Virus record (IMG/VR): IMGVR_UViG_2523533505_000001
Location: 62,001 to 91,026 of that record
Strand: one strand, 5' to 3'
DNA from: an uncultured virus (IMG/VR IMGVR_UViG_2523533505_000001)
Lineage: Duplodnaviria; Heunggongvirae; Uroviricota; Caudoviricetes
Length of the DNA: 29,026 nucleotides
A program made the position numbers and the translations under genes. Shown one piece after another: positions 9,237-21,545 of this stretch (position 1 is the first letter of the stretch; the number at the start of each line of letters is the position of its first letter). The notes under the pieces are model-generated. The model was not told the DNA's origin and ran no database searches. It saw only the letters and a list, made by a program, of their open reading frames with translations.

Positions 9237-9935
9237 ATGAAGCGTGTACGTGGGGTGGGTGCGGTGGCCGGGGGCGTGCTGGCCGTGGCGGTGCTGCTGG
9301 GCGGCTGCTCGAGCGCCGACAGCGACGGATCCGAGCGGGCGGAGTCCGCGTCGGCGGGGGCGCGTGAGACTGCGTCGGTGGAGGAAGTGCCGGAGGAGAC
9401 GGCGCCGACCTATCCGCCGGGCCCGGAGGGCGACATCGACCGGAAGGCGGATGCGGAGGGCTGGACGTACGACTCGATCTACGGCAGCGCGTCGGAGTTC
9501 GTGGATGACATCTGCGTGTCGCTGCCGGACGAGGGTGAGGGCGGGGTGCCGCGGGCGCAGTGGCTGGACGAGGGCGGCTACCTGCTGGGGGACGGCGCGG
9601 CGGTGCTGACGTTCGGCGTGCCGAAGCTGTGCCCGAAGTGGACGAAGACGGTCAAGGCCGCGGTGTCGGGGAACTACGAGCGCGCGGTGAAGGCCGGCGA
9701 TTGGGAGGTGGTGGCGGATCCCGCGCCGTACGACCCGGAGGAGGACGTGCAGCAGATTCGGCCGGGCACGTATCGGGCGGTGGGTCGGTTCGAGGACTGC
9801 TACTGGGAGCGGACGTCACAGGACGGGGAGATCGTTGCGAATCAGTTCGTGACGCAGGCGCGGGAGTTGACGGTGACGTTGCAGGCGGGTGAGCCGTTCA
9901 GGAACGACTGCGGTGTGTTCACGCGGGTCGGCTGA
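9237..9935 (+). CDS. Lipoprotein, moron-like and opposite to the flanking operons
   Basis: MKRVR, hydrophobic stretch, lipobox LGGC, acidic linker, C-terminal PGTYR...CYWER domain with Cys pairs. Confidence 0.8.
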   Translation: MKRVRGVGAVAGGVLAVAVLLGGCSSADSDGSERAESASAGARETASVEEVPEETAPTYPPGPEGDIDRKADAEGWTYDSIYGSASEFVDDICVSLPDEGEGGVPRAQWLDEGGYLLGDGAAVLTFGVPKLCPKWTKTVKAAVSGNYERAVKAGDWEVVADPAPYDPEEDVQQIRPGTYRAVGRFEDCYWERTSQDGEIVANQFVTQARELTVTLQAGEPFRNDCGVFTRVG

Positions 9936-9966
9936 CACCCTTCGGCCTGGGCCGGGCCGGACGTGG

Positions 9967-10121
9967 TGCGGTCCCTGAAACCGTCCCGGGGGGGGTGGGT
10001 GGTGTCAGGGACCGTAGGGCCCGGGCTCTCGAGAAAGGAGTCCGGGCAGATCGTGTGTCGGCCCGCCCAGGCAACACAGCCGGCGCGGGGACACTGACTG
10101 AGGAAGCTCGGGCGGGCCGAC
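9967..10121. terminator. Three consecutive inverted repeats between convergent genes
   Basis: CGGTCCCTGA/TCAGGGACCG (9969-10014), GCCCGGGCTC/GAGTCCGGGC (10019-10047) and GTCGGCCCGCCC/GGGCGGGCCGAC (10057-10121). Confidence 0.55.
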
Positions 10122-10178
10122 GTGAATCATGCTGCCGTACGGGGAGCGGGTTGTCCGAGGCGCCTTCCCCTGGCGCAG

Positions 10179-12500
10179 TCACGCGCCCGGCTCGGGCCCA
10201 ATGGCCCAGCTGCCGCGCTCGGGGCCGCGGTGGATGAGGTTCTTCTGGCGGAGGTTGCCGAGGGTGTTGTCGAGGGTGGAGCCGGTGACACCGGAGATGC
10301 GGCTGATGACGTCGCGCTTGGTGTAGTTGGTGTCGAGGCCTGCCGGGTCGGCGAACTCCTGCAGCGCGTTGAGGATGCGCTGTTCGGCGGTGGGGCCCTT
10401 CTTCGGGGAGAGGTCGATGCCGGTGAGGAGGGAGGCTGGGCCGCTGCCGTCGTCGTCGAGGTCGTCCTCCTGGTCTTCCTGGTCGCCGGGGAGGACGGAG
10501 ATGCGGGCGAGGTCGTGGCGGTCGTCCCAGAACGGCCAGTCGACGGGGTGGGCGACGGCCGAAGGGTCGATGTGGGGGGTGGCGTCCTCGAGGATCCAGT
10601 TCCGCATCATCTCGGCGTGGGCGCCGGGGCTGGCCGTGAACGCCAGTCCGAAGGTGCGCTCGGGGTCGTTGAGGGGCTTGGTCGGGTCGTAGACCATCTC
10701 ACGGTCGCCGGTCCAGGCCGGGGGGATGTCGGCGGGGTTACAGCCGGCGAAGTTCTCGGGCAGGTCGATGAGGTGCTTCTGCTGGGAGTCGGAGCGCAGG
10801 AGGACGAGGCTGCCGCCGTAGAAGACGTTGTCGCGGATGGCTGCGTCGCCGCCGAACTCTTTGAGCTGCATGAGCTGGTTGGCGAGGATGACGGGCATGC
10901 CCATGGAGCGGCCGAGGGTGGCGCCGGCGTTGATGATGAAGACGGCTTCCTTCTTGTGTTCGGCGTTCTCGCCGAGGAGTTTGCTGGCCTCGTCGAGGAT
11001 CAGCGGGGCCCAGGGGAGGCTGGGGCTGGCCTTGAAGTTCTTCATGCCGGTCTTCTTGGACTGCTCGATGCGGTGCCGGAGTCCGTGCCACCAGATACGC
11101 AGGGCGCCGAGGGCGTCGTCCGGGCCGAGGGCGGAGTAGGCGGCCATCTTCTCGATGGAGGGGTTGGAGGAGCCCTTGGGGTCGGCGTAGATGATGGCGG
11201 AGCCGTTGACGTGGTGGGCGAGGGCGATGAGTTGGAGGGTGCCGCCCTTTCCGGAGCCGGTGACGCCGGCGACGATGGCGTGCTGCGCGCCGAGGGCGGG
11301 GTCCCACAGCTGGATGCGGGCGGGGAACCCGGAGACGCCGGGCCCGAGTTGGATGTAGCCGTTGTCGTTGGGCTTCAGGACGTGGACGCCGGGGAACGCC
11401 GCGCCCTTCTGGAGGGGGTTGCGGTCCATCTTCCGGATGACGGCTTCACGCGGGTTCTGCCGGGGCTCGTAGGAGATCAGCAGCGGGTTCTTGACGCGGA
11501 GGGCTCCGGCGAGGTCCAGCCGGTCGGGGTGGCGGAGGCGGTCCATCTGGTCGCCGGCGACGACGAGGGCGACCTGCCCGTCGGTGTTGGGGTCGTACTG
11601 GACGTCTGTGAGGTGGGTGCCTTCCATGAGGCCGCCCTTGCGTGCGGCCCACTTCTTCCAGGCTCCGGCGAGGGTGCTGGGGTCGAGTTCGGCGGGCGGC
11701 TGGAGGCTGACGGTGATGCCGGCTTCGCCGGAGTGGGCGCCGGGCGTGATGGTGATCCAGGCGGCGGGCGCTTGGTAGGGGGTTCCTTGGTAGGCGGAGG
11801 AGACGGTGTCCGGGGTGACGGTGACGGACTGCCCGGGGGGCGCGGTGATGGTGCCTTGCCAGCGGGTGTTGTCGAGGGTGGTGAGCTGGATTTCCTGGGC
11901 TTTGTGGGTGCCGGTGTCGCGGTTGGAGATGACCTGGTACCAGCGGTAGGCGATCTGCCGGGCGGGGGTATCGGGGGCGACTGACGCTGTGGGTGCGGCC
12001 GTCGGGTGGGTGGGGGGCGGGGTGTTGGGGGTGCGGGGGCGGGTGAGGATGCGGCGGAGCTTGAAGGGGACGAGGGCGACGGCTGCCCACCAGCCGAGGG
12101 AGACGATGCCGGGGATGGGGTTGGCGGGGATGTTGAGCAGCCCGGCCATGAGGGCGTCGGCGCCGGCGGGGCCTTGGACGGTGCCCATGAGGAGGGCCAT
12201 TCCGCTGGTGAGGGTGGAGGCGAAGAGGGGGCTGCGGTGGGCGCGGATGATGTCTCCGGCGGGGAGCTGGTCGATGAGGTTGGGCGGGAGGCGGTTCATG
12301 TAGTTCGCGGCGAGGAATCCGGCGGTGCTGCCGTAGGCGATGGCGCCGAGGATGGCGGCGGATCCGTCGAGGAAGGGTGCGCCGACTCCGACGGCGACGG
12401 GGGTGAGGGATTCGGCCCAGGCGATGGCGCGTTCGGTGGTGGCCGGGCGGCGGACTGCGGGGGTGGGGGTGGCGGCGGTGTTGGTGGTCTGCTGGTTCAT
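10179..12500 (-). CDS. traB: FtsK/SpoIIIE-family conjugative DNA translocase (Streptomyces TraB-like)
   Basis: 773 aa: N-terminal hydrophobic membrane segments, Walker A GVTGSGKG, ADPKG, Walker B LILDEA, GRSMGM..ILANQ, and a C-terminal winged-helix-like domain. Confidence 0.85.
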   Translation of the reverse strand: MNQQTTNTAATPTPAVRRPATTERAIAWAESLTPVAVGVGAPFLDGSAAILGAIAYGSTAGFLAANYMNRLPPNLIDQLPAGDIIRAHRSPLFASTLTSGMALLMGTVQGPAGADALMAGLLNIPANPIPGIVSLGWWAAVALVPFKLRRILTRPRTPNTPPPTHPTAAPTASVAPDTPARQIAYRWYQVISNRDTGTHKAQEIQLTTLDNTRWQGTITAPPGQSVTVTPDTVSSAYQGTPYQAPAAWITITPGAHSGEAGITVSLQPPAELDPSTLAGAWKKWAARKGGLMEGTHLTDVQYDPNTDGQVALVVAGDQMDRLRHPDRLDLAGALRVKNPLLISYEPRQNPREAVIRKMDRNPLQKGAAFPGVHVLKPNDNGYIQLGPGVSGFPARIQLWDPALGAQHAIVAGVTGSGKGGTLQLIALAHHVNGSAIIYADPKGSSNPSIEKMAAYSALGPDDALGALRIWWHGLRHRIEQSKKTGMKNFKASPSLPWAPLILDEASKLLGENAEHKKEAVFIINAGATLGRSMGMPVILANQLMQLKEFGGDAAIRDNVFYGGSLVLLRSDSQQKHLIDLPENFAGCNPADIPPAWTGDREMVYDPTKPLNDPERTFGLAFTASPGAHAEMMRNWILEDATPHIDPSAVAHPVDWPFWDDRHDLARISVLPGDQEDQEDDLDDDGSGPASLLTGIDLSPKKGPTAEQRILNALQEFADPAGLDTNYTKRDVISRISGVTGSTLDNTLGNLRQKNLIHRGPERGSWAIGPEPGA

Positions 12501-12986: not shown

Positions 12987-15069
12987 GGGACATCTCCTGG
13001 TAGTAGCTCATCTTCGCTGCGCCGTCGGGCGAGTCGACGACGGCCTTGTAGATGCCGCCGTAGCGGGTCTCGGTGTTGCTGCTGAGGGTCTTGCAGGCCT
13101 CGGCGGCGCGGATGCCGCGCTTGTGGACCTCGGCGGCCTTCCCGGTCTGCACGTCGGCGGTCTCGGCGAGCCGGGTGAGGGCGGTGACGAGCTTGTCGCC
13201 GCCTTCGCTGCCGCGGGCCTGCTCGAGGAGTTCGGTGATCTGCTTGGCCTGCTCTCGTGCATGGGCCTCGAGGGTGCGGGTGGCTTCGGCGACCTGGGTC
13301 ATCCGGTCGTTCTTGGCCTCCAGGGTCTGCTGGAAGCGGCGCAGGGTGCGGACCTCGCCGTGCTTGATGTGGGGACGGTCGCCGCCGGCGAGGTGGATGT
13401 GGGTGGCGTCGGTGCCGGTGACCTGGATGGGTTGCGGGCCGGGCACGTGGTCGGGCTTGGGCGGGACGGGTGGCTGGTAGTCGGCGCTGCTGGCGGGCAC
13501 GGTCACGGGCTGGTCCTTGTCCGGCTGGGGGCGGGCCTTGTACTGGTCGTGGGCTTGGTCCAAGCGCTGCTTCTCGCGGGTGGCGTCCTCCTTCTTGTCG
13601 CGGTATCCGTCGCGGACGCCGTCGCGCCAGGCCTCGACGTGCGCGGTGACGGTGGCGGCGCGGGTGCCGTCGCGGTATCCGGCTTCGCGGGAGGCCTTCA
13701 GGTCGATGCCGGAGCCCGGGGCCCGGCCGGGGGACGTTCCGGGGGCACCGCCGGTGCCGGTGGCCGGTCGGGGCTTCTTCGGGTCCTTCGCCGTGGTGGG
13801 GTCCGTGTCGGGCTTCGTCTGCCCGGCGGGCTGGCCGGGCTTCTGGGTGTCGAGCTTGGGCTTGCCGGTGGGGGCCGGGGTGCCGTCCTTGCCGGTACGG
13901 GTGCTGTTCTTCGTCGGATCGGTGTCGCCGGACGTTCCGGCGGCCGGTCCGCCCTTGCCCGCCGGGTCGGTGCGGCCGCTGCCCTTGCCGGGCTGGTCCT
14001 GCTTCCCGGCCGGTTTGGTGCCGTCCCTGCCGTCCGTGCTGGTCTTCGTACCGTCTGAGCCGTTCGCCGGTCCGGCACCGGATTTGGTCGTCTTGCCCTT
14101 TGCCGTGCTGATCCCGGATCCGTCGCCGCAGGTCTCTGTGGTCTGCGGCTTCCCGGTTCCGCCGTCGGGCTTCTTGCCCTTGCCCGGGCCCGTCCCGCTG
14201 CCCGCGCTGGCGCTGCCGCTGGAGCCGGACGTTTTGCTGTGGGAGGGGGAGGTGGTCTGTCCGCCGGGCTTGTCCTTGGACGCCCCGGCGCTGTTGTGGG
14301 GGACGCGTCGGCTGCTGTGGTCCTTGCCGTCGCCGCTGGACGGCTTGCCGCCGCCACCTCGGCCGCGCCCGCCCTGACCGTCGGAGCCACCGGGGCCCTT
14401 GGCCCGGCCGGCCCCCGGCTGGGAGCCCGACTCCTTGCCGCCCCGCCCCGCTCCCCCGGAGCCGCCAGCGCCCGCGCTCTGCGGGCCCTTCGACTGCGGA
14501 CCGGACGCGTTCTTCGACCCCTTCGGCGATCCGCCACCGGACTTGCTGGACAGCGACTTACCGCCGTCACTCTTTCCACCGGTGCCTCCGGACGGCTTTC
14601 CGCTGGATGCACCGCTGGAACGGTTCACGGAAACCGTACGGGTCTCCTTCACCTGCAATGCCTGCGCGCGCGCCTTCTGAATATCCAGACGCTTATTACG
14701 GGCGTCCGCGCCTTTCTTCCACCGTTCCGCACCAGCGAGAAGCCAGGCACGGACCACGCTGGTCTCCTGACGCCCGTTACCGCTGCCTCCAGCCGTGCTC
14801 TGCTGCTTTCCCCCAGCGGCTTGCGTGGGGTCACCGTTCTGGAAATCAGCGCTCGTTCCGTGCACCTCCTGCTGCCCGGACGCCGCGCCTTCACCGGTGG
14901 TGGGGTTCAGGGTGAACCCGGCGGGGGGACGGGTGGGTTCGACTGCGGCGAGCAGCCCGGCGAGGCCGCCCGGCTGCTGCGTTCCGCTGTGCGTGGGGGC
15001 TGCGGGGGCAGTGCTTTGGGGTGCGTTCTCGGGCCCGGGAACGGCCGCGGGGGCCGTGTCGCTCGCCAT
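12979..15069 (-). CDS. Large protein with a long disordered G/K/S/T/P region and a C-terminal helical domain; probable transfer accessory protein
   Basis: ATG at 15069 with a GAGG RBS. About 696 aa with a structured segment VVRAWLLAGAERWKKGAD and a coiled-coil C-terminus. Confidence 0.75.
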   Translation of the reverse strand: MASDTAPAAVPGPENAPQSTAPAAPTHSGTQQPGGLAGLLAAVEPTRPPAGFTLNPTTGEGAASGQQEVHGTSADFQNGDPTQAAGGKQQSTAGGSGNGRQETSVVRAWLLAGAERWKKGADARNKRLDIQKARAQALQVKETRTVSVNRSSGASSGKPSGGTGGKSDGGKSLSSKSGGGSPKGSKNASGPQSKGPQSAGAGGSGGAGRGGKESGSQPGAGRAKGPGGSDGQGGRGRGGGGKPSSGDGKDHSSRRVPHNSAGASKDKPGGQTTSPSHSKTSGSSGSASAGSGTGPGKGKKPDGGTGKPQTTETCGDGSGISTAKGKTTKSGAGPANGSDGTKTSTDGRDGTKPAGKQDQPGKGSGRTDPAGKGGPAAGTSGDTDPTKNSTRTGKDGTPAPTGKPKLDTQKPGQPAGQTKPDTDPTTAKDPKKPRPATGTGGAPGTSPGRAPGSGIDLKASREAGYRDGTRAATVTAHVEAWRDGVRDGYRDKKEDATREKQRLDQAHDQYKARPQPDKDQPVTVPASSADYQPPVPPKPDHVPGPQPIQVTGTDATHIHLAGGDRPHIKHGEVRTLRRFQQTLEAKNDRMTQVAEATRTLEAHAREQAKQITELLEQARGSEGGDKLVTALTRLAETADVQTGKAAEVHKRGIRAAEACKTLSSNTETRYGGIYKAVVDSPDGAAKMSYYQEMSHA

Positions 15070-15188: not shown

Positions 15189-15776
15189 TCAGGTCTGGTT
15201 ACTGCGCGTTGCCTTGCGGGCGCCGAGGACGAACGCGCCGGCGAGGACACCTCCACCGATCAGTAGGCCCGTGTTGATGCCCCCGTCGCCGCCGTCCGAG
15301 GCGACCTGGGTAGAGCCGGCGGGCTGCATGTCGCTGCCGCTGACGGTGTCCGCGTACTCGCTGCGGCAGTCCGCCACGATGCTGCTGTAGGTGACGCCCA
15401 TCTGCTTTCCGACCAGGGACTTGTCGGTGTCGATGCAGGCGTCGATGAGCTTCTGGTTCGCGGAGTCCTCGGTGGCCTGCGTCTTGGCGTTCCGGGTGGC
15501 CGCCTTGTTGATTTCCTTCAGCTTTTCCACCTCCAATTGCTCCCGCTGCAGGGCGAGTTCCTGCGCCTTGATCTGGTTGGCGTTCGCGTCGGCGGAGTAG
15601 TCCTGCCAGGCGAGCATTCCGCCGCCCGCGAGAACGGTTACGCCGACCGCGACGGCGACCTTTCCGCGCTTGGTGAGTCCGGGCTTTACCGGCTGCGCGG
15701 TGGGTGCTCCGTAGGGGCCCCAGTTCTGCGTGTTGATGATTTCCGTGAACTGCTCGTCGTTGTTGGGGGTGTTCAT
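15189..15776 (-). CDS. Membrane protein with two TM segments and a coiled coil (Spd-like)
   Basis: TM VAVAVGVTVLAGGGMLAW, coiled coil, a Cys pair and a C-terminal TM followed by basic residues. GGAG RBS. Confidence 0.75.
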   Translation of the reverse strand: MNTPNNDEQFTEIINTQNWGPYGAPTAQPVKPGLTKRGKVAVAVGVTVLAGGGMLAWQDYSADANANQIKAQELALQREQLEVEKLKEINKAATRNAKTQATEDSANQKLIDACIDTDKSLVGKQMGVTYSSIVADCRSEYADTVSGSDMQPAGSTQVASDGGDGGINTGLLIGGGVLAGAFVLGARKATRSNQT

Positions 15777-15777
15777 T

Positions 15778-16284
15778 TCACTCTCCGTTTGCGCGGGCCT
15801 GGTAGGAGGCGCTGGTCAGCAGGGCTGTGACGTGCGGGAAGGTGCGGTCGGGGAGGTCGTTCCAGGCGAAGAAAGGCATGGTCACGCCGTCCTTGGCGAG
15901 TTGCTGCTGCATGTACTGCTCGGCGCGGCCGCGCGCGTGGGGGGTGACGTGCCCGGACTTTTCCAGCAGGGACTGGCAGCCGCGGATGCACATCCGGCCG
16001 GTCGGCGACACGTCGAGGGACTTGCACCAGCCGTACCGCTCGAGGGCTTCGCGGACCTGGAGGAGGTGCAGGGAGGGGGGTTGGGGTACCGGATCCTGCC
16101 ACCAGCCGAGGCCGGCCATGACCTGCCGGAGGTGCTTGGGCAGGATCCGCTGCCCCCACGTCGGCGGGTCCAGCAGGTCCGGCGGAGCCGTGACGGGCCG
16201 GAGGTCGACCGGCGGGGGCACGTGCAGCGGGACCACAGGCCGAGGGGCGGCCTGCGGCGGCTGCTGGATCCGGGTCTGCTTCAC
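15778..16284 (-). CDS. Hypothetical protein (DUF6197-like)
   Basis: GW...C..G...WND..RT..V pattern (ERYGWCK, MCIRG, AWNDLPDRTFPHV). Confidence 0.6.
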   Translation of the reverse strand: MKQTRIQQPPQAAPRPVVPLHVPPPVDLRPVTAPPDLLDPPTWGQRILPKHLRQVMAGLGWWQDPVPQPPSLHLLQVREALERYGWCKSLDVSPTGRMCIRGCQSLLEKSGHVTPHARGRAEQYMQQQLAKDGVTMPFFAWNDLPDRTFPHVTALLTSASYQARANGE

Positions 16285-16293
16285 TTCGGGTCC

Positions 16294-16662
16294 TCAGGCG
16301 GTCTGGGCGTCGGGCTGGGCGGCGTACAACTGCTGTGCGGTGGAGAGCCGGTCGTAGGCGGTGGTCTGCTTCAGGCTCAGGCGGTTCATCACGTCCTCGA
16401 GGGACACGGCCTTCGGGTCGCCGGCCTGGCGGATCCAGGTGACGACGGCGTTGATCTGTCCCTGGCGCCAGTGCCTGCCAACGCGGCCCCGGAGGTCTGC
16501 CAGTTCGTCGACGTCGGTTGCCAGACCTGCCAGGGCGTCTGCCAGTGCCAGCGGCAGAACTGCCAGCGCGACCTCCACGCCGTGCCGGGTGCACAGCATG
16601 ATCGGCTGGCTGGTAGCCGGGGAGGACTGGCAGTTTTCGACGGTGCATCGGGCGGTGGTCAC
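16294..16662 (-). CDS. Hypothetical protein with an N-terminal Cys/His cluster and a C-terminal HTH-like segment
   Basis: GAAAGG RBS and GTG start. CTVENC...CTRH and SLEDVMNRLSLKQTTAYDRL. Confidence 0.65.
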   Translation of the reverse strand: MTTARCTVENCQSSPATSQPIMLCTRHGVEVALAVLPLALADALAGLATDVDELADLRGRVGRHWRQGQINAVVTWIRQAGDPKAVSLEDVMNRLSLKQTTAYDRLSTAQQLYAAQPDAQTA

Positions 16663-17132
16663 GGGTGCCTTTCGCTGGCAGGTTCGGTTGGCAGGTCAGG
16701 AGGCGAGCCGGACGGGCTTTGCCAGTTCGGTGTGTCCGGCGTCGATGGCGGCGGTGCGGAGCTGCTGGGCGCGGGAGCGGGAGACGCCCAGGGCTTCGCC
16801 GAGCTTCTGGTCGGAGGGGGCTTTGCCAAGCTGGTCGTTCAGCAGCTGGTAGACGGCGACCACTTCCTGGATGTCGATGCCACTGGCAGCGGTGGCAGCC
16901 GTGCTGGTAGCGCTCTGGCTGGCAGTGGCACTGGCAGAACCGACCGGGCTGGTAGCACCGTTGGCAGTCGTACGGTTGGCAGGGTTGGCAGGTGCGGTGT
17001 GGCGGCTGGCACTGGCAGAGCTGGTAGCGCTGGCGCTGGCATTGGCGGGGCTGGCGGGTCGGCTGGTAGCAGTCGGGCTGGCAGTGGCATTGGCAGCGCG
17101 CTGGATGGCATCGGCGGCCCGGCGGCTGGCAG
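16475..17132. repeat. Dense field of TGG(C/T)A(G) / (C)TGCCA short repeats; candidate clt-like locus
   Basis: About 30-35 copies by eye, spanning two genes and the intergenic gap, with an orientation switch near 16570-16610. Confidence 0.75.
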
Positions 17133-18264
17133 CCTCCTTCCGCTCGGCCTCCACGCGCGCGGCCTCTTCGGCCTCCTGCCGCTGCTTCGCGGCTGCGGCG
17201 GCACGCTCCTGCTGCTCGGCGACCAGGCGGGCGTGCTGGAGCTGCTCCTCGCGTCGGCGGCGGTCCTCGGCCTCGGCGGCCGCGCGCTGCTGGCGGGCGA
17301 GTTCGTCGATGCGGGCCTGGTGCTGGGCCTCGGCGAGCTGGCGGTCACGCTCGGCCTTCTGCCGGGCCTCCTCCAGCTCGAGGGCCTTCCGCTCACGCTC
17401 GAGGCGCTCGTTCTCCTCCTGCTGGCGGCGCTCGTACTCGGCCCGCTCGGCCTGCCGGGCGATGCGGGACTCCTCCTCGAGGCGCTTGGCCTCCTCACGG
17501 GCCGGAAGCTCGATGGCCTCGGCAACGCTCATACCGTCCTTGGCGAGAGACAGGACGAGGGCCTGTTCCGCAGTGGCCTTGCGGCGCCACGCCCACCGGC
17601 CGTGCTGCTTGCGGAGCTTGGCGATGTAGATCCGCCGCTCCTGCTCCAGTTCGAGGACGGTGTCCCATTTGCGGATCGCCCACAGGCGCTGGCGGCGCCA
17701 GAGGATGAACGTGGCGATGGGGTTGAGGAACCAGCGGGAGGCCGGCGGGCCTTCCATGAACCGGTCGGCGGTGATGTCGGCCATCCGGCCGATGGCGTGG
17801 CGGGCGGCTTCGACGGAGACGACGAAGAGGATGGGGATGACGGCGTGCATGCCGACGCCGACGGGGTCGGGCCAGGAGACGACGGCGTTGAAGGCGATGG
17901 TGGCGGCGGTGAGGAGCCAGGCCCCGTAGCGGAGGGCCGGGTAGGGCATGCGGAGCCAGGTGAGGAGGAGGTCGAGGGCGAGGAAGACGCCGATGCCGAG
18001 GTCGATGCCGAGGGTGAAGACGCGGGAGAAGGCGCCGAAGCCTTTGGCGTAGGCGAGTTGGGTGACGGCGGTGTAGGAGCCGATGAAGCCGATCGCGGCG
18101 ATGGCGACGGCGCCGAAGATGACGAAGCCGATGAGGAGCTTCTGGGGGCGGGTGAGGGTGAGCCGGGGGCCGAGGGTGCCGTTGGGTGTCCCCGGCGCGG
18201 TGGGCGCGAGGGGGCCGTCCGCGGTGGGGCGGTTCGGCTCGTGGCCGGCCGGGGTGGAGGTCAT
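16696..18264 (-). CDS. DUF2637-family membrane protein (SpdB2-like plasmid spread protein)
   Basis: Four TM segments with GFIGSYTAV, LGIDLG, TIAFN and HAVIPILF motifs, then a coiled coil, a Ser/Ala/Thr repeat and a C-terminal HTH (PSDQKLGEALGVSRSRAQQLR). Confidence 0.8.
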   Translation of the reverse strand: MTSTPAGHEPNRPTADGPLAPTAPGTPNGTLGPRLTLTRPQKLLIGFVIFGAVAIAAIGFIGSYTAVTQLAYAKGFGAFSRVFTLGIDLGIGVFLALDLLLTWLRMPYPALRYGAWLLTAATIAFNAVVSWPDPVGVGMHAVIPILFVVSVEAARHAIGRMADITADRFMEGPPASRWFLNPIATFILWRRQRLWAIRKWDTVLELEQERRIYIAKLRKQHGRWAWRRKATAEQALVLSLAKDGMSVAEAIELPAREEAKRLEEESRIARQAERAEYERRQQEENERLERERKALELEEARQKAERDRQLAEAQHQARIDELARQQRAAAEAEDRRRREEQLQHARLVAEQQERAAAAAKQRQEAEEAARVEAERKEAASRRAADAIQRAANATASPTATSRPASPANASASATSSASASRHTAPANPANRTTANGATSPVGSASATASQSATSTAATAASGIDIQEVVAVYQLLNDQLGKAPSDQKLGEALGVSRSRAQQLRTAAIDAGHTELAKPVRLAS

Positions 18265-18304
18265 CGGGATCGGTTTCCTTCCTGCGGTGCGGGCGGGTAC
18301 GGGG

Positions 18305-18604
18305 TCAGGCGGCGTTCGGCTTGGGCATGGCCCGGCAGGCGGAGGCGTGCTCGTTGGCCGCGTCGCGAGCGATCCAGTCGTGGCGGCCGGATCCTTCGCT
18401 GCCGTCGTTGCAGCCGAGGCACTTCCAGTTGTTGTCCTCGACGTAGCGGCCGGATCCGGTGACGTGGACCTGGGCGCCGCCCTGGGTCAGGAACCGCATC
18501 ATCACGTTGTCGGCCGGGTTCTCCGGGTGTGCGGAGGCGGGCTGCGGGGCGGGGTTTTCCGTGGCGAGCCGCTTCGTGCGGCGGGTGAACAGGGTGAGCG
18601 CCAT
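18305..18604 (-). CDS. Small zinc-binding hypothetical protein (99 aa)
   Basis: ATG at 18604 with GAAAGG RBS. WKCLGC...ANEHASACRAMP. Confidence 0.7.
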   Translation of the reverse strand: MALTLFTRRTKRLATENPAPQPASAHPENPADNVMMRFLTQGGAQVHVTGSGRYVEDNNWKCLGCNDGSEGSGRHDWIARDAANEHASACRAMPKPNAA

Positions 18605-20741: not shown

Positions 20742-21545
20742 ATGCCGATTCCCGACGGCCCGAAGACCTACCGAGAGCTTGCTCAGCTCTTGCGTGGTCG
20801 CATCGAGGGGGGTGAGTTCCCGCCCGGATCAGGCCTGCCAGCCATCACCAAGTTGATGGAGGACTACGGCCTTGCACGTCAGACCGTGCGGGCGGCTTTG
20901 ACTCAACTGGCATCAGAAGGTCTGGTGCTGAGTGCCCCTCGAAAGGGAACTGTCGTTCTGGCCCGGACCGAGCGTCGCCGGATCACCCGGAGCCAGTTGG
21001 TCACCAGGAGCAGCGCCGGGATGTACGTCTTCCCGGCAGCCAGCTATCCAGACGAGGTCTGGCAAACGCACGGCACGCCCAGGCGGTCGTTCGAGCCAGC
21101 GCCGGACCGGGTTGCCGAGATCTTTTCGGTGGAGCCCGGGAGCGAGGTTCTGCGGAGGCGGCGCGTCATGTCTCCGGAAGAGGAACCCCCGTTCCAGATC
21201 GTCGACACCTGGCTGAGCCCGCCGGCGGTTGAAGACGCTCCGCGGATCGCCGAAAAGTCGACGGGGCCCGGCGGGTACCTGGATCGACTGGAAGAGGCCG
21301 GCCACGGGCCGATCTCTTGGGCTGAGACGGTCAGAACTCGGATGCCCTCGGAAGAGGAAGCGCGGCTTCTAGAGATCGCAACATCCATGCCCGTCATGGA
21401 GATGACGCTGGTAGGAAGGTCGGGACGCACAGGTGACGCACTGGAGGTAACCATCCGCGTTATCCCGGGTGACCGTGTGGAGCTCGTTTCGGAGCTCGTG
21501 CGCGACGCGTCCGCGTCTTGGCCTCGAGAGGAGGGTGTCCGGTAG
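20742..21545 (+). CDS. GntR-family (HutC/UTRA) transcriptional regulator, KorSA/TraR-like
   Basis: wHTH YRELAQLLRGRIEGGEFPPGSGLP...ARQTVRAAL..LASEGLV...KGTVV plus a UTRA domain (RMPSEEEARLLEI). AGGAGG RBS. Divergent from the transfer region. Confidence 0.92.
   Translation: MPIPDGPKTYRELAQLLRGRIEGGEFPPGSGLPAITKLMEDYGLARQTVRAALTQLASEGLVLSAPRKGTVVLARTERRRITRSQLVTRSSAGMYVFPAASYPDEVWQTHGTPRRSFEPAPDRVAEIFSVEPGSEVLRRRRVMSPEEEPPFQIVDTWLSPPAVEDAPRIAEKSTGPGGYLDRLEEAGHGPISWAETVRTRMPSEEEARLLEIATSMPVMEMTLVGRSGRTGDALEVTIRVIPGDRVELVSELVRDASASWPREEGVR

What the first reader, a model, noticed from the sequence alone, without database searches (positions are those of the whole stretch)
16475..17132. Polar TGGCAG repeat field overprinted on two genes: candidate clt / TraB loading locus
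Seen: about 20 TGG(C/T)A copies in 16880-17132, further copies at 16611, 16628, 16676, 16689 and 16847, and seven copies in the opposite orientation in 16475-16565. The motif encodes Ala-Ser/Thr in the DUF2637 gene and Leu-Ala in the next gene, uses otherwise rare codons (ACT, GCT, AGT, GCA), and occurs twice in the intergenic gap. This points to selection on the DNA rather than the protein. Known: TraB recognises clustered 8-bp direct repeats (clt/TRS) through its wHTH, as FtsK does with KOPS. Inference: a cis-acting transfer locus with an orientation switch, or a binding array for the HTH of the gene it lies in.
Basis: partly seen in the sequence, partly recalled or inferred. Interest (0 to 1): 0.7.

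Follow-up and report, generated by a model that had tools for sequence, protein, structure and literature searches.

The report
Docking-word array around membrane-tether gene
A Streptomyces phage-plasmid has about 35 copies of the short DNA word (C)TGCCA(G) written through the codons of two genes and the gap between them, most likely as docking sites for the DNA-binding tail of the membrane protein encoded there, which would hold the element's DNA at the membrane.

Summary
19 of the window's 34 TGGCAG copies lie in 16475-17132, where about 0.4 are expected. This is the strongest local 6-mer cluster in the 91-kb replicon.

With the protein sequences held fixed and codons redrawn from the element's own usage, the expected counts are 0.39 against 11 observed in the DUF2637 gene, and 0.12 against 5 in the next gene (0 of 2000 redraws reach the observed count). 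So the word is selected in the DNA.

The replicon is a pZL12-like phage-plasmid. The word tracks the type of HTH at the C-terminus of the membrane protein:
- HTH-A goes with CTGCCA in 13 of 13 loci.
- HTH-B goes with CCGAAG in 7 of 7.
- HTH-C goes with GGCTCA in 3 of 3.

Type-B relatives lose homology to the window exactly across 16425-17503, which holds the coiled coil, linker, HTH-A and array. The FtsK/TraB-like pumps of other type-A loci are unrelated to the window's.

Best reading (0.6): the array is a set of docking sites for the gene's own HTH tail. A clt read directly by TraB is unlikely (0.12). No binding has been shown. Earlier scan reports describe the same phenomenon with other words. 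I found no published description.

The parts
16884..17132 (-). Sense array: 20 copies of T(G/A)CCA, core of (C)TGCCA(G), on the coding strand. All are in one frame (NNT GCC AGY/ACY/AAY) within the Ala/Ser/Thr/Asn linker of the DUF2637 protein (residues about 385-461).
   Evidence: Redraw test: CTGCCA 11 observed against 0.39 expected, 0 of 2000. Word-free test: z 10.2 against a null maximum of 5.2.
16696..16881 (-). Coding stretch for the C-terminal three-helix HTH (HTH-A, residues about 462-522), the proposed reader of the word. It holds three degenerate antisense copies (16720, 16824, 16878).
   Evidence: AF2 model pLDDT 83 with helices 9-23, 29-36 and 40-52. Best folds are sigma-70 region 4 and LexA N-terminus, E 0.09-0.3. 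Sigma70_r4 scores below threshold, E 0.069. RSRAQQ is present in 48 of 48 homologues.
16663..16695 (-). Gap between the two genes, with two sense copies (16676, 16689) over the likely ribosome-binding site of the small gene.
   Evidence: The same two post-stop copies occur at +88 and about +101 in L095, L096 and L097.
16611..16633 (-). Two further sense copies inside the small gene's N-terminus. The copy at 16628 reads AAC TGC CAG (Asn-Cys-Gln), a different frame, and supplies a Cys of the CX4C...CX2H motif.
16475..16565 (+). Antisense array: seven copies of TGGCA on the coding strand, reading CTG GCA (Leu-Ala) with the rare Ala codon GCA, in the middle of the small gene.
   Evidence: Redraw test: TGGCAG 5 observed against 0.12 expected, 0 of 2000. 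Copies sit at the same positions in L095.
16696..18264 (-). Gene for the 522-aa membrane protein: DUF2637 membrane domain, long coiled coil, low-complexity linker, HTH-A.
   Evidence: PF10935 E 1.5e-30. phrog_29003 E 3.5e-124. Translation.
16294..16662 (-). Small gene (122 aa): CX4C-X12-CX2H motif, Leu-Ala stretch, and a C-terminal domain homologous to the HTH-B tail of type-B DUF2637 proteins.
   Evidence: 70-75% identical homologues follow the type-A gene in L095 and L096. Residues 63-119 match positions 442-498 of phrog_29003. The AF2 model was too poor to use, pLDDT 57.
16425..17503 (.). Swapped module: coiled coil A, linker A with the array, HTH-A, the gap, and the N-terminal two thirds of the small gene. 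Homology to type-B relatives stops at both edges.
   Evidence: blastn. L007 aligns at 87% over 16091-16425 and 90% over 17504-18311. L001 aligns over 15282-16425 and 17503-18362. Type-A loci L095 and L096 align without a break from about 16290 to about 18320. Protein identity to L007 is near-complete from about residue 33 to 207, then breaks down.
10179..12500 (-). FtsK/SpoIIIE(TraB)-like DNA pump of the same leftward operon, with a possible winged-helix tail.
   Evidence: phrog_1358 E 4e-10. HerA_C is weak. HTH_Crp_2 scores below threshold in the last 113 aa, E 0.0036. Homologues are annotated as FtsK or T4SS coupling protein.
20742..21545 (+). Divergent GntR/UTRA regulator, in the position of the TraR/KorA repressors of Streptomyces transfer operons.
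   Evidence: Role of TraR from PMC4447253, passages read.

Best explanation
The field is a self-encoded docking array. The 522-aa protein sits in the membrane through its DUF2637 domain. A long coiled coil and a floppy linker project a small three-helix HTH (HTH-A). About 35 copies of the non-palindromic word (C)TGCCA(G) flank the HTH-coding stretch. Twenty are written into the linker codons. Four lie just after the stop, in the gap and the start of the next gene. Seven lie in the opposite orientation in the next gene.

Proposed mechanism: many HTH-A tails bind these words and so tie the phage-plasmid's DNA to the membrane, beside the FtsK/TraB-like pump of the same GntR-controlled operon. This would serve transfer, spread through the mycelium, or stable inheritance.

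Shown here:
- The word is selected in the DNA.
- It is unique to this spot in the replicon.
- It is conserved with HTH-A and replaced together with it.

Inferred:
- Binding tethers DNA to the membrane.
- The purpose is transfer, spread or stability.
For: 1. DNA-level selection.
- Codon redraws give 0.39 against 11 observed and 0.12 against 5 observed, 0 of 2000 each.
- The word-free test gives 0 of 200 for both genes. Four control genes of the window are not significant: the 168-aa gene, the 195-aa gene, the pump and the terminase.
- The CTTGCC cluster in the 700-aa gene is fully explained by Gly-Lys codons, 10 observed against 10.7 expected. This shows that the test can tell the two cases apart.

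2. Frame independence.
- In the window the word is written as Ala-Ser/Thr/Asn, Leu-Ala and Asn-Cys-Gln, and also in non-coding DNA.
- In L090 the antisense copies are written onto a different gene, as Trp-Gln and Leu-Ala.

3. Replication in relatives.
- The window's word exceeds every redraw in 12 of 12 other HTH-A loci.
- It is the top local 6-mer in 13 of 13.

4. Co-variation of word and HTH type, counted in the last 900 nt of the gene plus 500 nt downstream.
- Type A, 13 of 13: 12-23 A-words, at most 4 B-words, at most 1 C-word.
- Type B, 7 of 7: 23-37 B-words, at most 2 A-words.
- Type C, 3 of 3: 20-22 C-words.

5. Module swap. Type-B relatives lose homology exactly across 16425-17503. The membrane domain is near-identical to that of type-B L007.

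6. Invariant reader. The likely recognition helix RSRAQQ is present in 48 of 48 HTH-A proteins, matching the invariant word. The fold is sigma-region-4-like; by recall, that domain reads a 6-bp asymmetric word as a monomer.

7. Specificity. Chromosomal DUF2637 paralogues without this tail show no array; 1 of 66 exceeds its null.

8. Precedent. SpdA2 of pIJ101 binds sites inside its own coding region (PMC4170104; abstract and sections 15 and 21 read).
Against: - No binding, transfer or localisation data exist.
- Word and HTH are physically adjacent, so linkage alone would make them co-vary. The real number of independent swaps is small, about three well-sampled types.
- The small gene keeps an HTH-B-like domain, yet the replicon has no CCGAAG cluster (no group of 4 or more within 200 bp). 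If HTH-B reads CCGAAG in type-B elements, this domain has no array here.
- The single type-D locus L104 shares part of the type-B word although its tail differs.
- Type-F loci (pZL12 itself and L109) have no array, so the slot protein can do without one.
- The raw maximum-count test was not significant for the window (37 of 100).
- The fold search gave no match at E <= 0.001.
- Redraws for relatives used the window replicon's codon table, not each relative's own.
Confidence: 0.6

Rival explanations
1. The field is the clt of the element: the winged-helix tail of the FtsK/TraB-like pump (10179-12500) reads the repeated word directly and loads there, with the orientation change setting the pumping direction as KOPS does for FtsK.
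For: - The operon holds an FtsK/SpoIIIE-like pump with a weak winged-helix signal in its tail, and a divergent GntR regulator.
- Known clt loci are clusters of short direct repeats bound by TraB or TraA (PMC3583192 passages; PMC4447253 passages).
- pZL12 transfer needs the major tra gene plus two adjacent genes (PMC3583192).
Against: - Type-A loci L092 and L102 carry the same word, but their pumps share only about 50 aligned residues with the window's (E 7e-4 and 0.085), and their C-terminal tails are unrelated.
- Of five related virus records, one gave a pump match (28% identity) and four gave none.
- The field lies 4.2 kb and five genes from the pump gene.
- The module containing the word was exchanged without the neighbouring genes.
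- The word is not strand-skewed across the replicon, 38 against 37.
- A hairpin-rich non-coding stretch lies in the usual clt position, downstream of the pump gene.
Confidence: 0.12
2. The array is read by another element-encoded protein: the small Zn-motif/HTH-B protein, a packaging (pac) protein, or a partition protein.
For: - The small gene overlaps the antisense array and has two candidate DNA-binding parts.
- By recall, the pac site of phage P1 is two clusters of hexamers inside a gene.
- pZL12-type elements package by headful, according to the abstract of the pZL12 paper, which I recall but could not read.
Against: - No small gene was found after the type-A gene in L088, L090 and L092. 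In L088 and L090 the 168-aa-family gene follows instead, and in L092 a pump gene does. L097-L099, L101 and L102 listed no ORF under my filter. All of these loci have the array.
- The only ParB-like signal is weak (E 0.003) and about 42 kb away.
- The terminase gene is about 8 kb away.
- None of these proteins lies in the swapped module, apart from the N-terminal part of the small gene.
Confidence: 0.1
3. There is no function: the repeats are a by-product of replication slippage in low-complexity coding DNA, which copies whatever codons the founding unit had.
For: - All 20 linker copies are in one frame, at spacings of 6 to 27 bases that are multiples of 3.
- Units such as GCCAGT GCCACT GCCAGC look tandem.
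- The linker protein sequence is poorly conserved.
Against: - Slippage cannot place the same word in the gap between genes, in a second frame, or in reverse orientation in the next gene, which differs between loci.
- It cannot keep the word constant across 13 loci whose HTH domains are only 56-85% identical.
- It cannot confine arrays to forms that carry an HTH. Chromosomal paralogues also have low-complexity linkers, yet 65 of 66 lack an array.
Confidence: 0.05
4. The signal acts in RNA: sense copies (CUGCCAG) and downstream antisense copies (CUGGCAG) on one transcript pair with each other and control translation or stability.
For: The two arrays are exact reverse complements and lie on one probable operon transcript.
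Against: - Folding 16450-17140 as RNA gives z -1.47, and 2 of 20 shuffles fold as well.
- Copy spacings differ between the arrays, so no long helix can form.
- Type-B arrays are almost all in one orientation, 20-31 sense against 1-6 antisense.
Confidence: 0.03

Closest known systems
TraB/TraA with the clt locus of Streptomyces conjugative plasmids (pSVH1, pJV1, pWTY27, pIJ101)
   Same: Both are clusters of a short, plasmid-specific DNA word read by a membrane-located protein of a GntR-controlled transfer operon. In both, part of the site can lie inside a coding region (pWTY27 clt covers 16 bp of traA; PMC3583192).
   Different: - Here the candidate reader has no motor domain; it is a membrane anchor, coiled coil and HTH.
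- There are about 35 copies of a 5-7-bp word, not roughly 3-9 copies of 5-9 bp.
- The copies are spread over 650 bp of coding DNA in two orientations.
- The pump varies between loci while the word stays fixed.
SpdA2 and its sps sites of pIJ101 (Thoma et al. 2014, PMC4170104)
   Same: Both are Spd-type plasmid proteins whose specific binding sites lie inside their own coding region. The phenotype of SpdA2 is segregational stability and not transfer.
   Different: - SpdA proteins are small (117-163 aa) and carry their putative DNA-binding domain at the N-terminus.
- sps is a 12-bp palindrome in 1-3 copies and is conserved across plasmids.
- Here the word is asymmetric, present in tens of copies, and differs between alleles. 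No sps-like site is in the window.
SpdB2 of pSVH1 (Thoma et al. 2015, PMC4447253)
   Same: Both are integral membrane proteins with four predicted helices and a coiled coil, act with TraB in spread, and bind double-stranded DNA. The paper states that homologues exist in actinophages including VWB. The window's DUF2637 stretch matches phage VWB gp24 at 73% DNA identity.
   Different: - SpdB2 binding is reported as non-specific.
- I could not test whether DUF2637 is the SpdB2 family, because no SpdB2 sequence was at hand.
- No site array is described for SpdB2.
FtsK gamma domain with KOPS (and SpoIIIE with SRS)
   Same: Both involve an oriented short word read by a small HTH at the end of a membrane-anchored protein.
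   Different: - KOPS are spread and strand-skewed over a whole chromosome. Here the word clusters at one spot with no skew.
- HTH-A gives no FtsK_gamma match and resembles sigma region 4 in fold.
Centromere-like repeat arrays of plasmids (ParR-parC of R1, omega heptads of pSM19035, StbA-stbDR of R388); recalled, not checked in any call
   Same: Both are arrays of about 10 short direct or inverted repeats, coated by a small DNA-binding protein encoded next to them, used for positioning or transfer choice.
   Different: Those arrays are non-coding and lie upstream of the operon, and their readers are soluble.

Membership tests
Streptomyces clt / TraB recognition repeats | Cluster of short direct repeats of a plasmid-specific word | tested here: met
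   35 copies of TGG(C/T)A in 16476-17127. Consensus (C)TGCCA(G) from 257 sense and 149 antisense copies in 13 loci.
Streptomyces clt / TraB recognition repeats | Lies in or next to the translocase gene | tested here: not met
   The field is 4.2 kb and five genes from the pump gene 10179-12500. This feature is not universal; pIJ101 clt is near korB (PMC3583192).
Streptomyces clt / TraB recognition repeats | Word is read by the translocase's C-terminal winged helix | tested here: inconclusive
   The comparative test speaks against it: loci with the same word have unrelated pumps and tails. Binding itself cannot be tested here.
Streptomyces clt / TraB recognition repeats | Required in cis for conjugal transfer | not testable with these tools
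   Needs a mating assay.
SpdA / sps | Binding sites lie inside the protein's own coding region | tested here: met
   The location is met: 20 copies lie in the gene's own linker codons. That they are binding sites is inferred.
SpdA / sps | 12-bp palindrome CGTCACGTGACG, 1-3 copies | tested here: not met
   No match with up to 1 mismatch. There is one match with 2 mismatches at 9814, fewer than chance. The word here is not palindromic.
SpdA / sps | Small protein (117-163 aa) with a conserved N-terminal DNA-binding region | tested here: not met
   The protein is 522 aa, has a membrane N-terminus, and carries its HTH at the C-terminus. No direct sequence comparison with SpdA was made.
Pfam DUF2637 (PF10935) | Score above the curated cut-off | tested here: met
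   106.7 bits against a cut-off of 22.8, E 1.5e-30, residues 48-198.
FtsK gamma / KOPS-type guidance | FtsK_gamma winged-helix domain | tested here: not met
   No Pfam match even at E <= 10 for the tail alone. Best folds are sigma-70 region 4 and LexA.
FtsK gamma / KOPS-type guidance | Replicon-wide, strand-skewed spread of the word | tested here: not met
   38 copies on one strand and 37 on the other. The only cluster is at 78-79 kb of the replicon.
pZL12-like Streptomyces phage-plasmids | About 90-kb replicon with phage head genes plus plasmid transfer genes, syntenic with pZL12 relatives | tested here: met
   - 91,026-bp single record with terminal repeats.
- Terminase, portal and DnaB.
- Matches to 85-99-kb Streptomyces plasmids and to phage ZL12.
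Sigma-70 region 4-like HTH | Three-helix fold superposable on region 4 | tested here: inconclusive
   TM 0.56-0.61 and rmsd 0.8-1.6 A over 42-43 residues, but E 0.09-0.3 and none at <= 0.001. Sigma70_r4 E 0.069, below the cut-off.

The most novel reading that the evidence does not exclude
The HTH tail and its word form exchangeable address labels (A: CTGCCAG, B: CCGAAGC, C: GGCTCAC, and possibly more). These let co-resident or competing phage-plasmids be tethered, spread and inherited independently. That would be a new kind of incompatibility or identity system, written into coding DNA. In type-A elements the soluble Zn-motif/HTH-B protein, which has no array of its own, would then act as a decoy that strips type-B rivals from the membrane.
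Probability: 0.12. Interest if true: 0.85.

Novelty: new variant of a known kind. Interest (0 to 1): 0.66.

Why it matters
If the reading holds, it describes a general way in which Streptomyces mobile elements attach their DNA to the membrane: a motor-less anchor protein carries an exchangeable DNA-reading tail, and its docking sites are hidden in its own codons.

- It gives a concrete candidate function for DUF2637-type proteins, which occur on hundreds of Streptomyces plasmids (350 records) and in phages such as VWB.
- It shows that tens of binding sites can be overprinted on coding sequence and can shape a protein's linker composition.
- The window and L007 carry near-identical anchors with different tail-and-word modules, which amounts to a natural swap experiment that the bench can copy directly.
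- For annotation, it warns that odd codon usage in low-complexity linkers can mark a cis-acting site.

Tried and rejected
- A first scan of genome contigs with the single protein found nothing. A scan with an alignment worked.
- tblastn of the 61-aa HTH-A against PLSDB found no match, although homologues exist in other collections. So no type-A plasmid record could be read with its annotation.
- The pZL12 paper and the Vogelmann 2011 TraB paper are not held. What I say of them is recalled, or taken from papers that cite them.
- The small-gene structure model was too poor to use, pLDDT 57. No fold search was run on it.
- Fold search of HTH-A gave no match at E <= 0.001.
- The raw maximum-count array test lacks power where a coiled coil is present. 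I replaced it with a per-word z test.
- The CTTGCC cluster in the 700-aa gene was considered as a second array and rejected; it is explained by Gly-Lys codons.
- The RNA-pairing idea was tested and not supported.
- The longest frame in L103 looked spurious, so that locus is not used in the pump comparison.
- L093 and L094, which are weak partial HTH matches, were not analysed.
- L100 repeats L092, and L099 repeats the layout of L098. The 13 type-A loci are therefore at least 11 distinct ones.
- H8, H14 and H16 were not fetched.
- No complex prediction and no sequencing-run look-up was made.
Full report
**What the window is.**
The window is the last 29 kb of a 91,026-bp single-contig virus record with direct terminal repeats and 70% G+C. 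It encodes a large terminase, a portal-like protein and a DnaB helicase. Its DNA matches many 85-99-kb Streptomyces plasmids and, over a short stretch, phage ZL12, the virion form of plasmid pZL12. So it is a pZL12-like phage-plasmid.

From about 20.2 kb down to 10.2 kb the genes run leftward from a divergent GntR regulator. In order they are:
- several small genes;
- a 522-aa DUF2637 membrane protein (16696-18264);
- a 122-aa gene (16294-16662);
- genes of 168, 195, 700 and 127 aa;
- a 773-aa FtsK/SpoIIIE-like pump (10179-12500).

This is the layout of Streptomyces transfer and spread operons held in check by a GntR repressor (PMC4447253, passages read).

- 20 TGG(C/T)A copies lie at 16884-17127.
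- Five more lie at 16611, 16628, 16676, 16689 and 16847.
- Seven lie in the other orientation at 16476-16561.

TGGCAG occurs 34 times in the window against 17.7 expected (0 of 100 shuffles reach 34), and 19 of the 34 lie in the 658-bp field. In the whole replicon the word occurs 38 and 37 times on the two strands and clusters only here. The field is the strongest local 6-mer cluster of the replicon, with 16 copies in 600 bp against 0.49 expected.

**The word is selected in the DNA.**
In the linker the word reads NNT GCC AGY/ACY/AAY. T-ending codons and AGY serine are strongly over-used there compared with the rest of the gene and the replicon.

I kept each protein sequence fixed and redrew every codon from the replicon's own usage.
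- The DUF2637 gene should hold 0.39 CTGCCA; it holds 11.
- The small gene should hold 0.12 TGGCAG; it holds 5.
- No redraw out of 2000 reached either count.

A test that names no word in advance picks out the same word in both genes. The DUF2637 gene gives z 10.2 against a null maximum of 5.2, and the small gene 4.9 against 4.1 (0 of 200 each). The 168-aa gene, the 195-aa gene, the pump and the terminase are not significant.

Two further results calibrate the method.
- The CTTGCC cluster in the 700-aa gene is fully explained by Gly-Lys dipeptides, 10 observed against 10.7 expected. This is a useful negative control.
- A cruder raw maximum-count test was not significant for the window (37 of 100), because common coiled-coil hexamers fill its null.

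The word appears in three coding frames (Ala-Ser/Thr/Asn, Leu-Ala, Asn-Cys-Gln) and twice in the 33-bp gap between the genes.

**Relatives carry other words at the same place.**
In type-B relatives the 3' half of the homologous gene holds 20-31 sense copies of CCGAAG. They are written as Ala-Glu-Ala with the GAA codon, which I recall is rare in Streptomyces. A few reverse copies are written as Thr-Ser-Gly, Pro-Ser-Gly and Ala-Ser-Val. These loci are the plasmids of S. europaeiscabiei, S. tubercidicus, S. anulatus and S. atratus, plus L007, L008 and L009.

Type-C loci hold about 20 copies of GGCTCA in both orientations. These are pSLE1 and the plasmids of S. chartreusis and S. californicus.

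Each word goes with one kind of C-terminal HTH. Searching for the window's tail (HTH-A) found 48 DUF2637 proteins, all with RSRAQQ in the likely recognition helix. DNA was available for 13 loci, of which at least 11 are distinct.
- In all 13, CTGCCA/TGGCAG or its overlapping neighbour is the top local 6-mer.
- In 12 of 12 tested, it exceeds every codon redraw.

The cross-table is block-diagonal for 13 of 13 type-A, 7 of 7 type-B and 3 of 3 type-C loci. Chromosomal DUF2637 paralogues, which have a different tail ending in HIA, show no array; 1 of 66 exceeds its null.

**Layout.**
In type-A loci a uniform sense array lies 94-416 nt before the RSRAQQ codons. Two or three sense copies follow the stop. 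Then come four to nine exact TGGCAG copies, mostly antisense.

What the downstream copies are written on differs between loci.
- In the window, L095 and L096 it is the small Zn-motif gene.
- In L088 and L090 it is the N-terminus of the 168-aa-family gene. In L090 this uses two frames.
- In L092, L101 and L102 the further copies begin about 460 nt downstream. In L092 that is the 5' part of a pump gene.

So the orientation change is a conserved tendency and not a single fixed switch point.

**A natural swap.**
blastn shows that type-B relatives L007 (87-90% identity) and L001 (79-83%) align with the window up to 16425 and again from 17503, but not between. Type-A loci L095 and L096 align straight through. 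The membrane domain is near-identical to that of L007 from about residue 33 to 207, after which the proteins diverge.

The exchanged 1.08-kb module holds the coiled coil, the linker with the array, HTH-A, the gap, and the first two thirds of the small gene.

phrog_29003 covers the DUF2637 protein at residues 2-453 and then continues into residues 63-119 of the small gene. So type A looks like a type-B gene split by this module, or type B looks like a fusion of the two genes.

**Who reads the word?**
HTH-A is the only DNA-binding domain present in every array-bearing type-A locus, and it lies inside the swapped module.
- Its model is confident (pLDDT 83) and has three helices.
- Its best structural matches are sigma-70 region 4 and the LexA N-terminus, but they are weak, E 0.09-0.3.
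- Pfam gives only a sub-threshold Sigma70_r4 hit and no FtsK_gamma hit.

The pump is a poor candidate. The pumps next to the type-A genes of L092 and L102 are unrelated to the window's apart from about 50 residues, and their tails differ. Only one of five related virus records gave any pump match.

The small protein is also a poor candidate, because several array-bearing loci showed no such gene. A non-coding, hairpin-rich stretch just downstream of the pump gene (9936-10178) sits in the classical clt position.

RNA pairing between the two arrays is not supported, z -1.47.

**What does not fit.**
- The small gene keeps an HTH-B-like domain with the same helix as type-B tails, yet the replicon has no CCGAAG cluster.
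- The single type-D locus shares part of the B word.
- pZL12 itself and L109 (type F) have no array.
- Word and tail are neighbours, so linkage inflates the co-variation.
- Nothing here shows binding.

**Comparison with what is known.**
The closest published systems are TraB/TraA with clt and SpdA2 with its sps sites inside its own gene (PMC4170104).

This case differs in four ways. It has a motor-less membrane anchor. It has tens of copies of an asymmetric word. The word is overprinted on codons of two genes. The tail and word are exchanged together as alleles.

The papers listed by searches for DUF2637, pZL12, SpdB2, TraB with clt, and Streptomyces phage-plasmids did not include a description of such arrays, judging from the listings and the passages I read.

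The scan itself has reported the same phenomenon with other words in other genomes.

**Verdict.**
The feature is real and selected at the DNA level. It is best read as a self-encoded docking array for the membrane protein's HTH tail (0.6), with a probable role in holding the element's DNA at the membrane for transfer, spread or inheritance. It is a new variant of a known kind.

Noticed in passing
window 9936-10178: The non-coding stretch just downstream of the FtsK/TraB-like gene has several inverted repeats: a 12-nt perfect pair at 10057-10068 / 10110-10121 and a 14-nt pair at 93%. It also holds CTGACACC and its inverse GGTGTCAG. TGACACC is the DC1 word of the pWTY27 clt as given in PMC3583192. 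This is a candidate clt in the classical position.
   Followed up: partly
window 13861-14434: Ten CTTGCC copies lie in the 700-aa Gly/Lys/Ser-rich gene, and a similar cluster occurs in L104, L107 and L109. In the window they are explained by Gly-Lys codons (10 observed, 10.7 expected), so this is not a DNA-level array.
   Followed up: yes
window 13735-15043 (700-aa gene): GGAACG/CGTTCC occurs 7 times against 0.6 expected from codon redraws (z 6.1). It is mostly written as Gly-Thr with rare codons, but it is spread over 1.3 kb and not clustered. Unexplained.
   Followed up: partly
own replicon about 44.6-45.5 kb (outside the window): A second local word cluster: CCTTCC 9 copies, and CCGGAA and CGGAAG 7-8 copies, per 600 bp against about 0.5 expected.
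   Followed up: no
L112 (phage VWB gp24 and downstream): The DUF2637 gene of the well-known phage VWB holds 16 sense copies of GCACCC in two frames (Ala-Pro with GCA, and His-Pro). About 13 more lie in the next 700 nt. The combined count for both orientations in the gene is 17 against 2.45 expected, z 8.5, 0 of 200.
   Followed up: partly
window 16294-16662; L095 2735-3109; L096 1954-2331: A conserved small protein with invariant CX4C-X12-CX2H and an HTH-B-like tail, but no matching CCGAAG array in the replicon. Its role is open.
   Followed up: partly
L010-L087 (most loci): Most Streptomyces genomes sampled carry a DUF2637 paralogue, some on chromosome-sized contigs, with a conserved C-terminus ending in EEDHIA and no word array.
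   Followed up: partly
window 15189-15776: The 195-aa protein gives a weak match to Rz-like spanin (phrog_739, E 5.5e-4), although it sits in the transfer operon.
   Followed up: no
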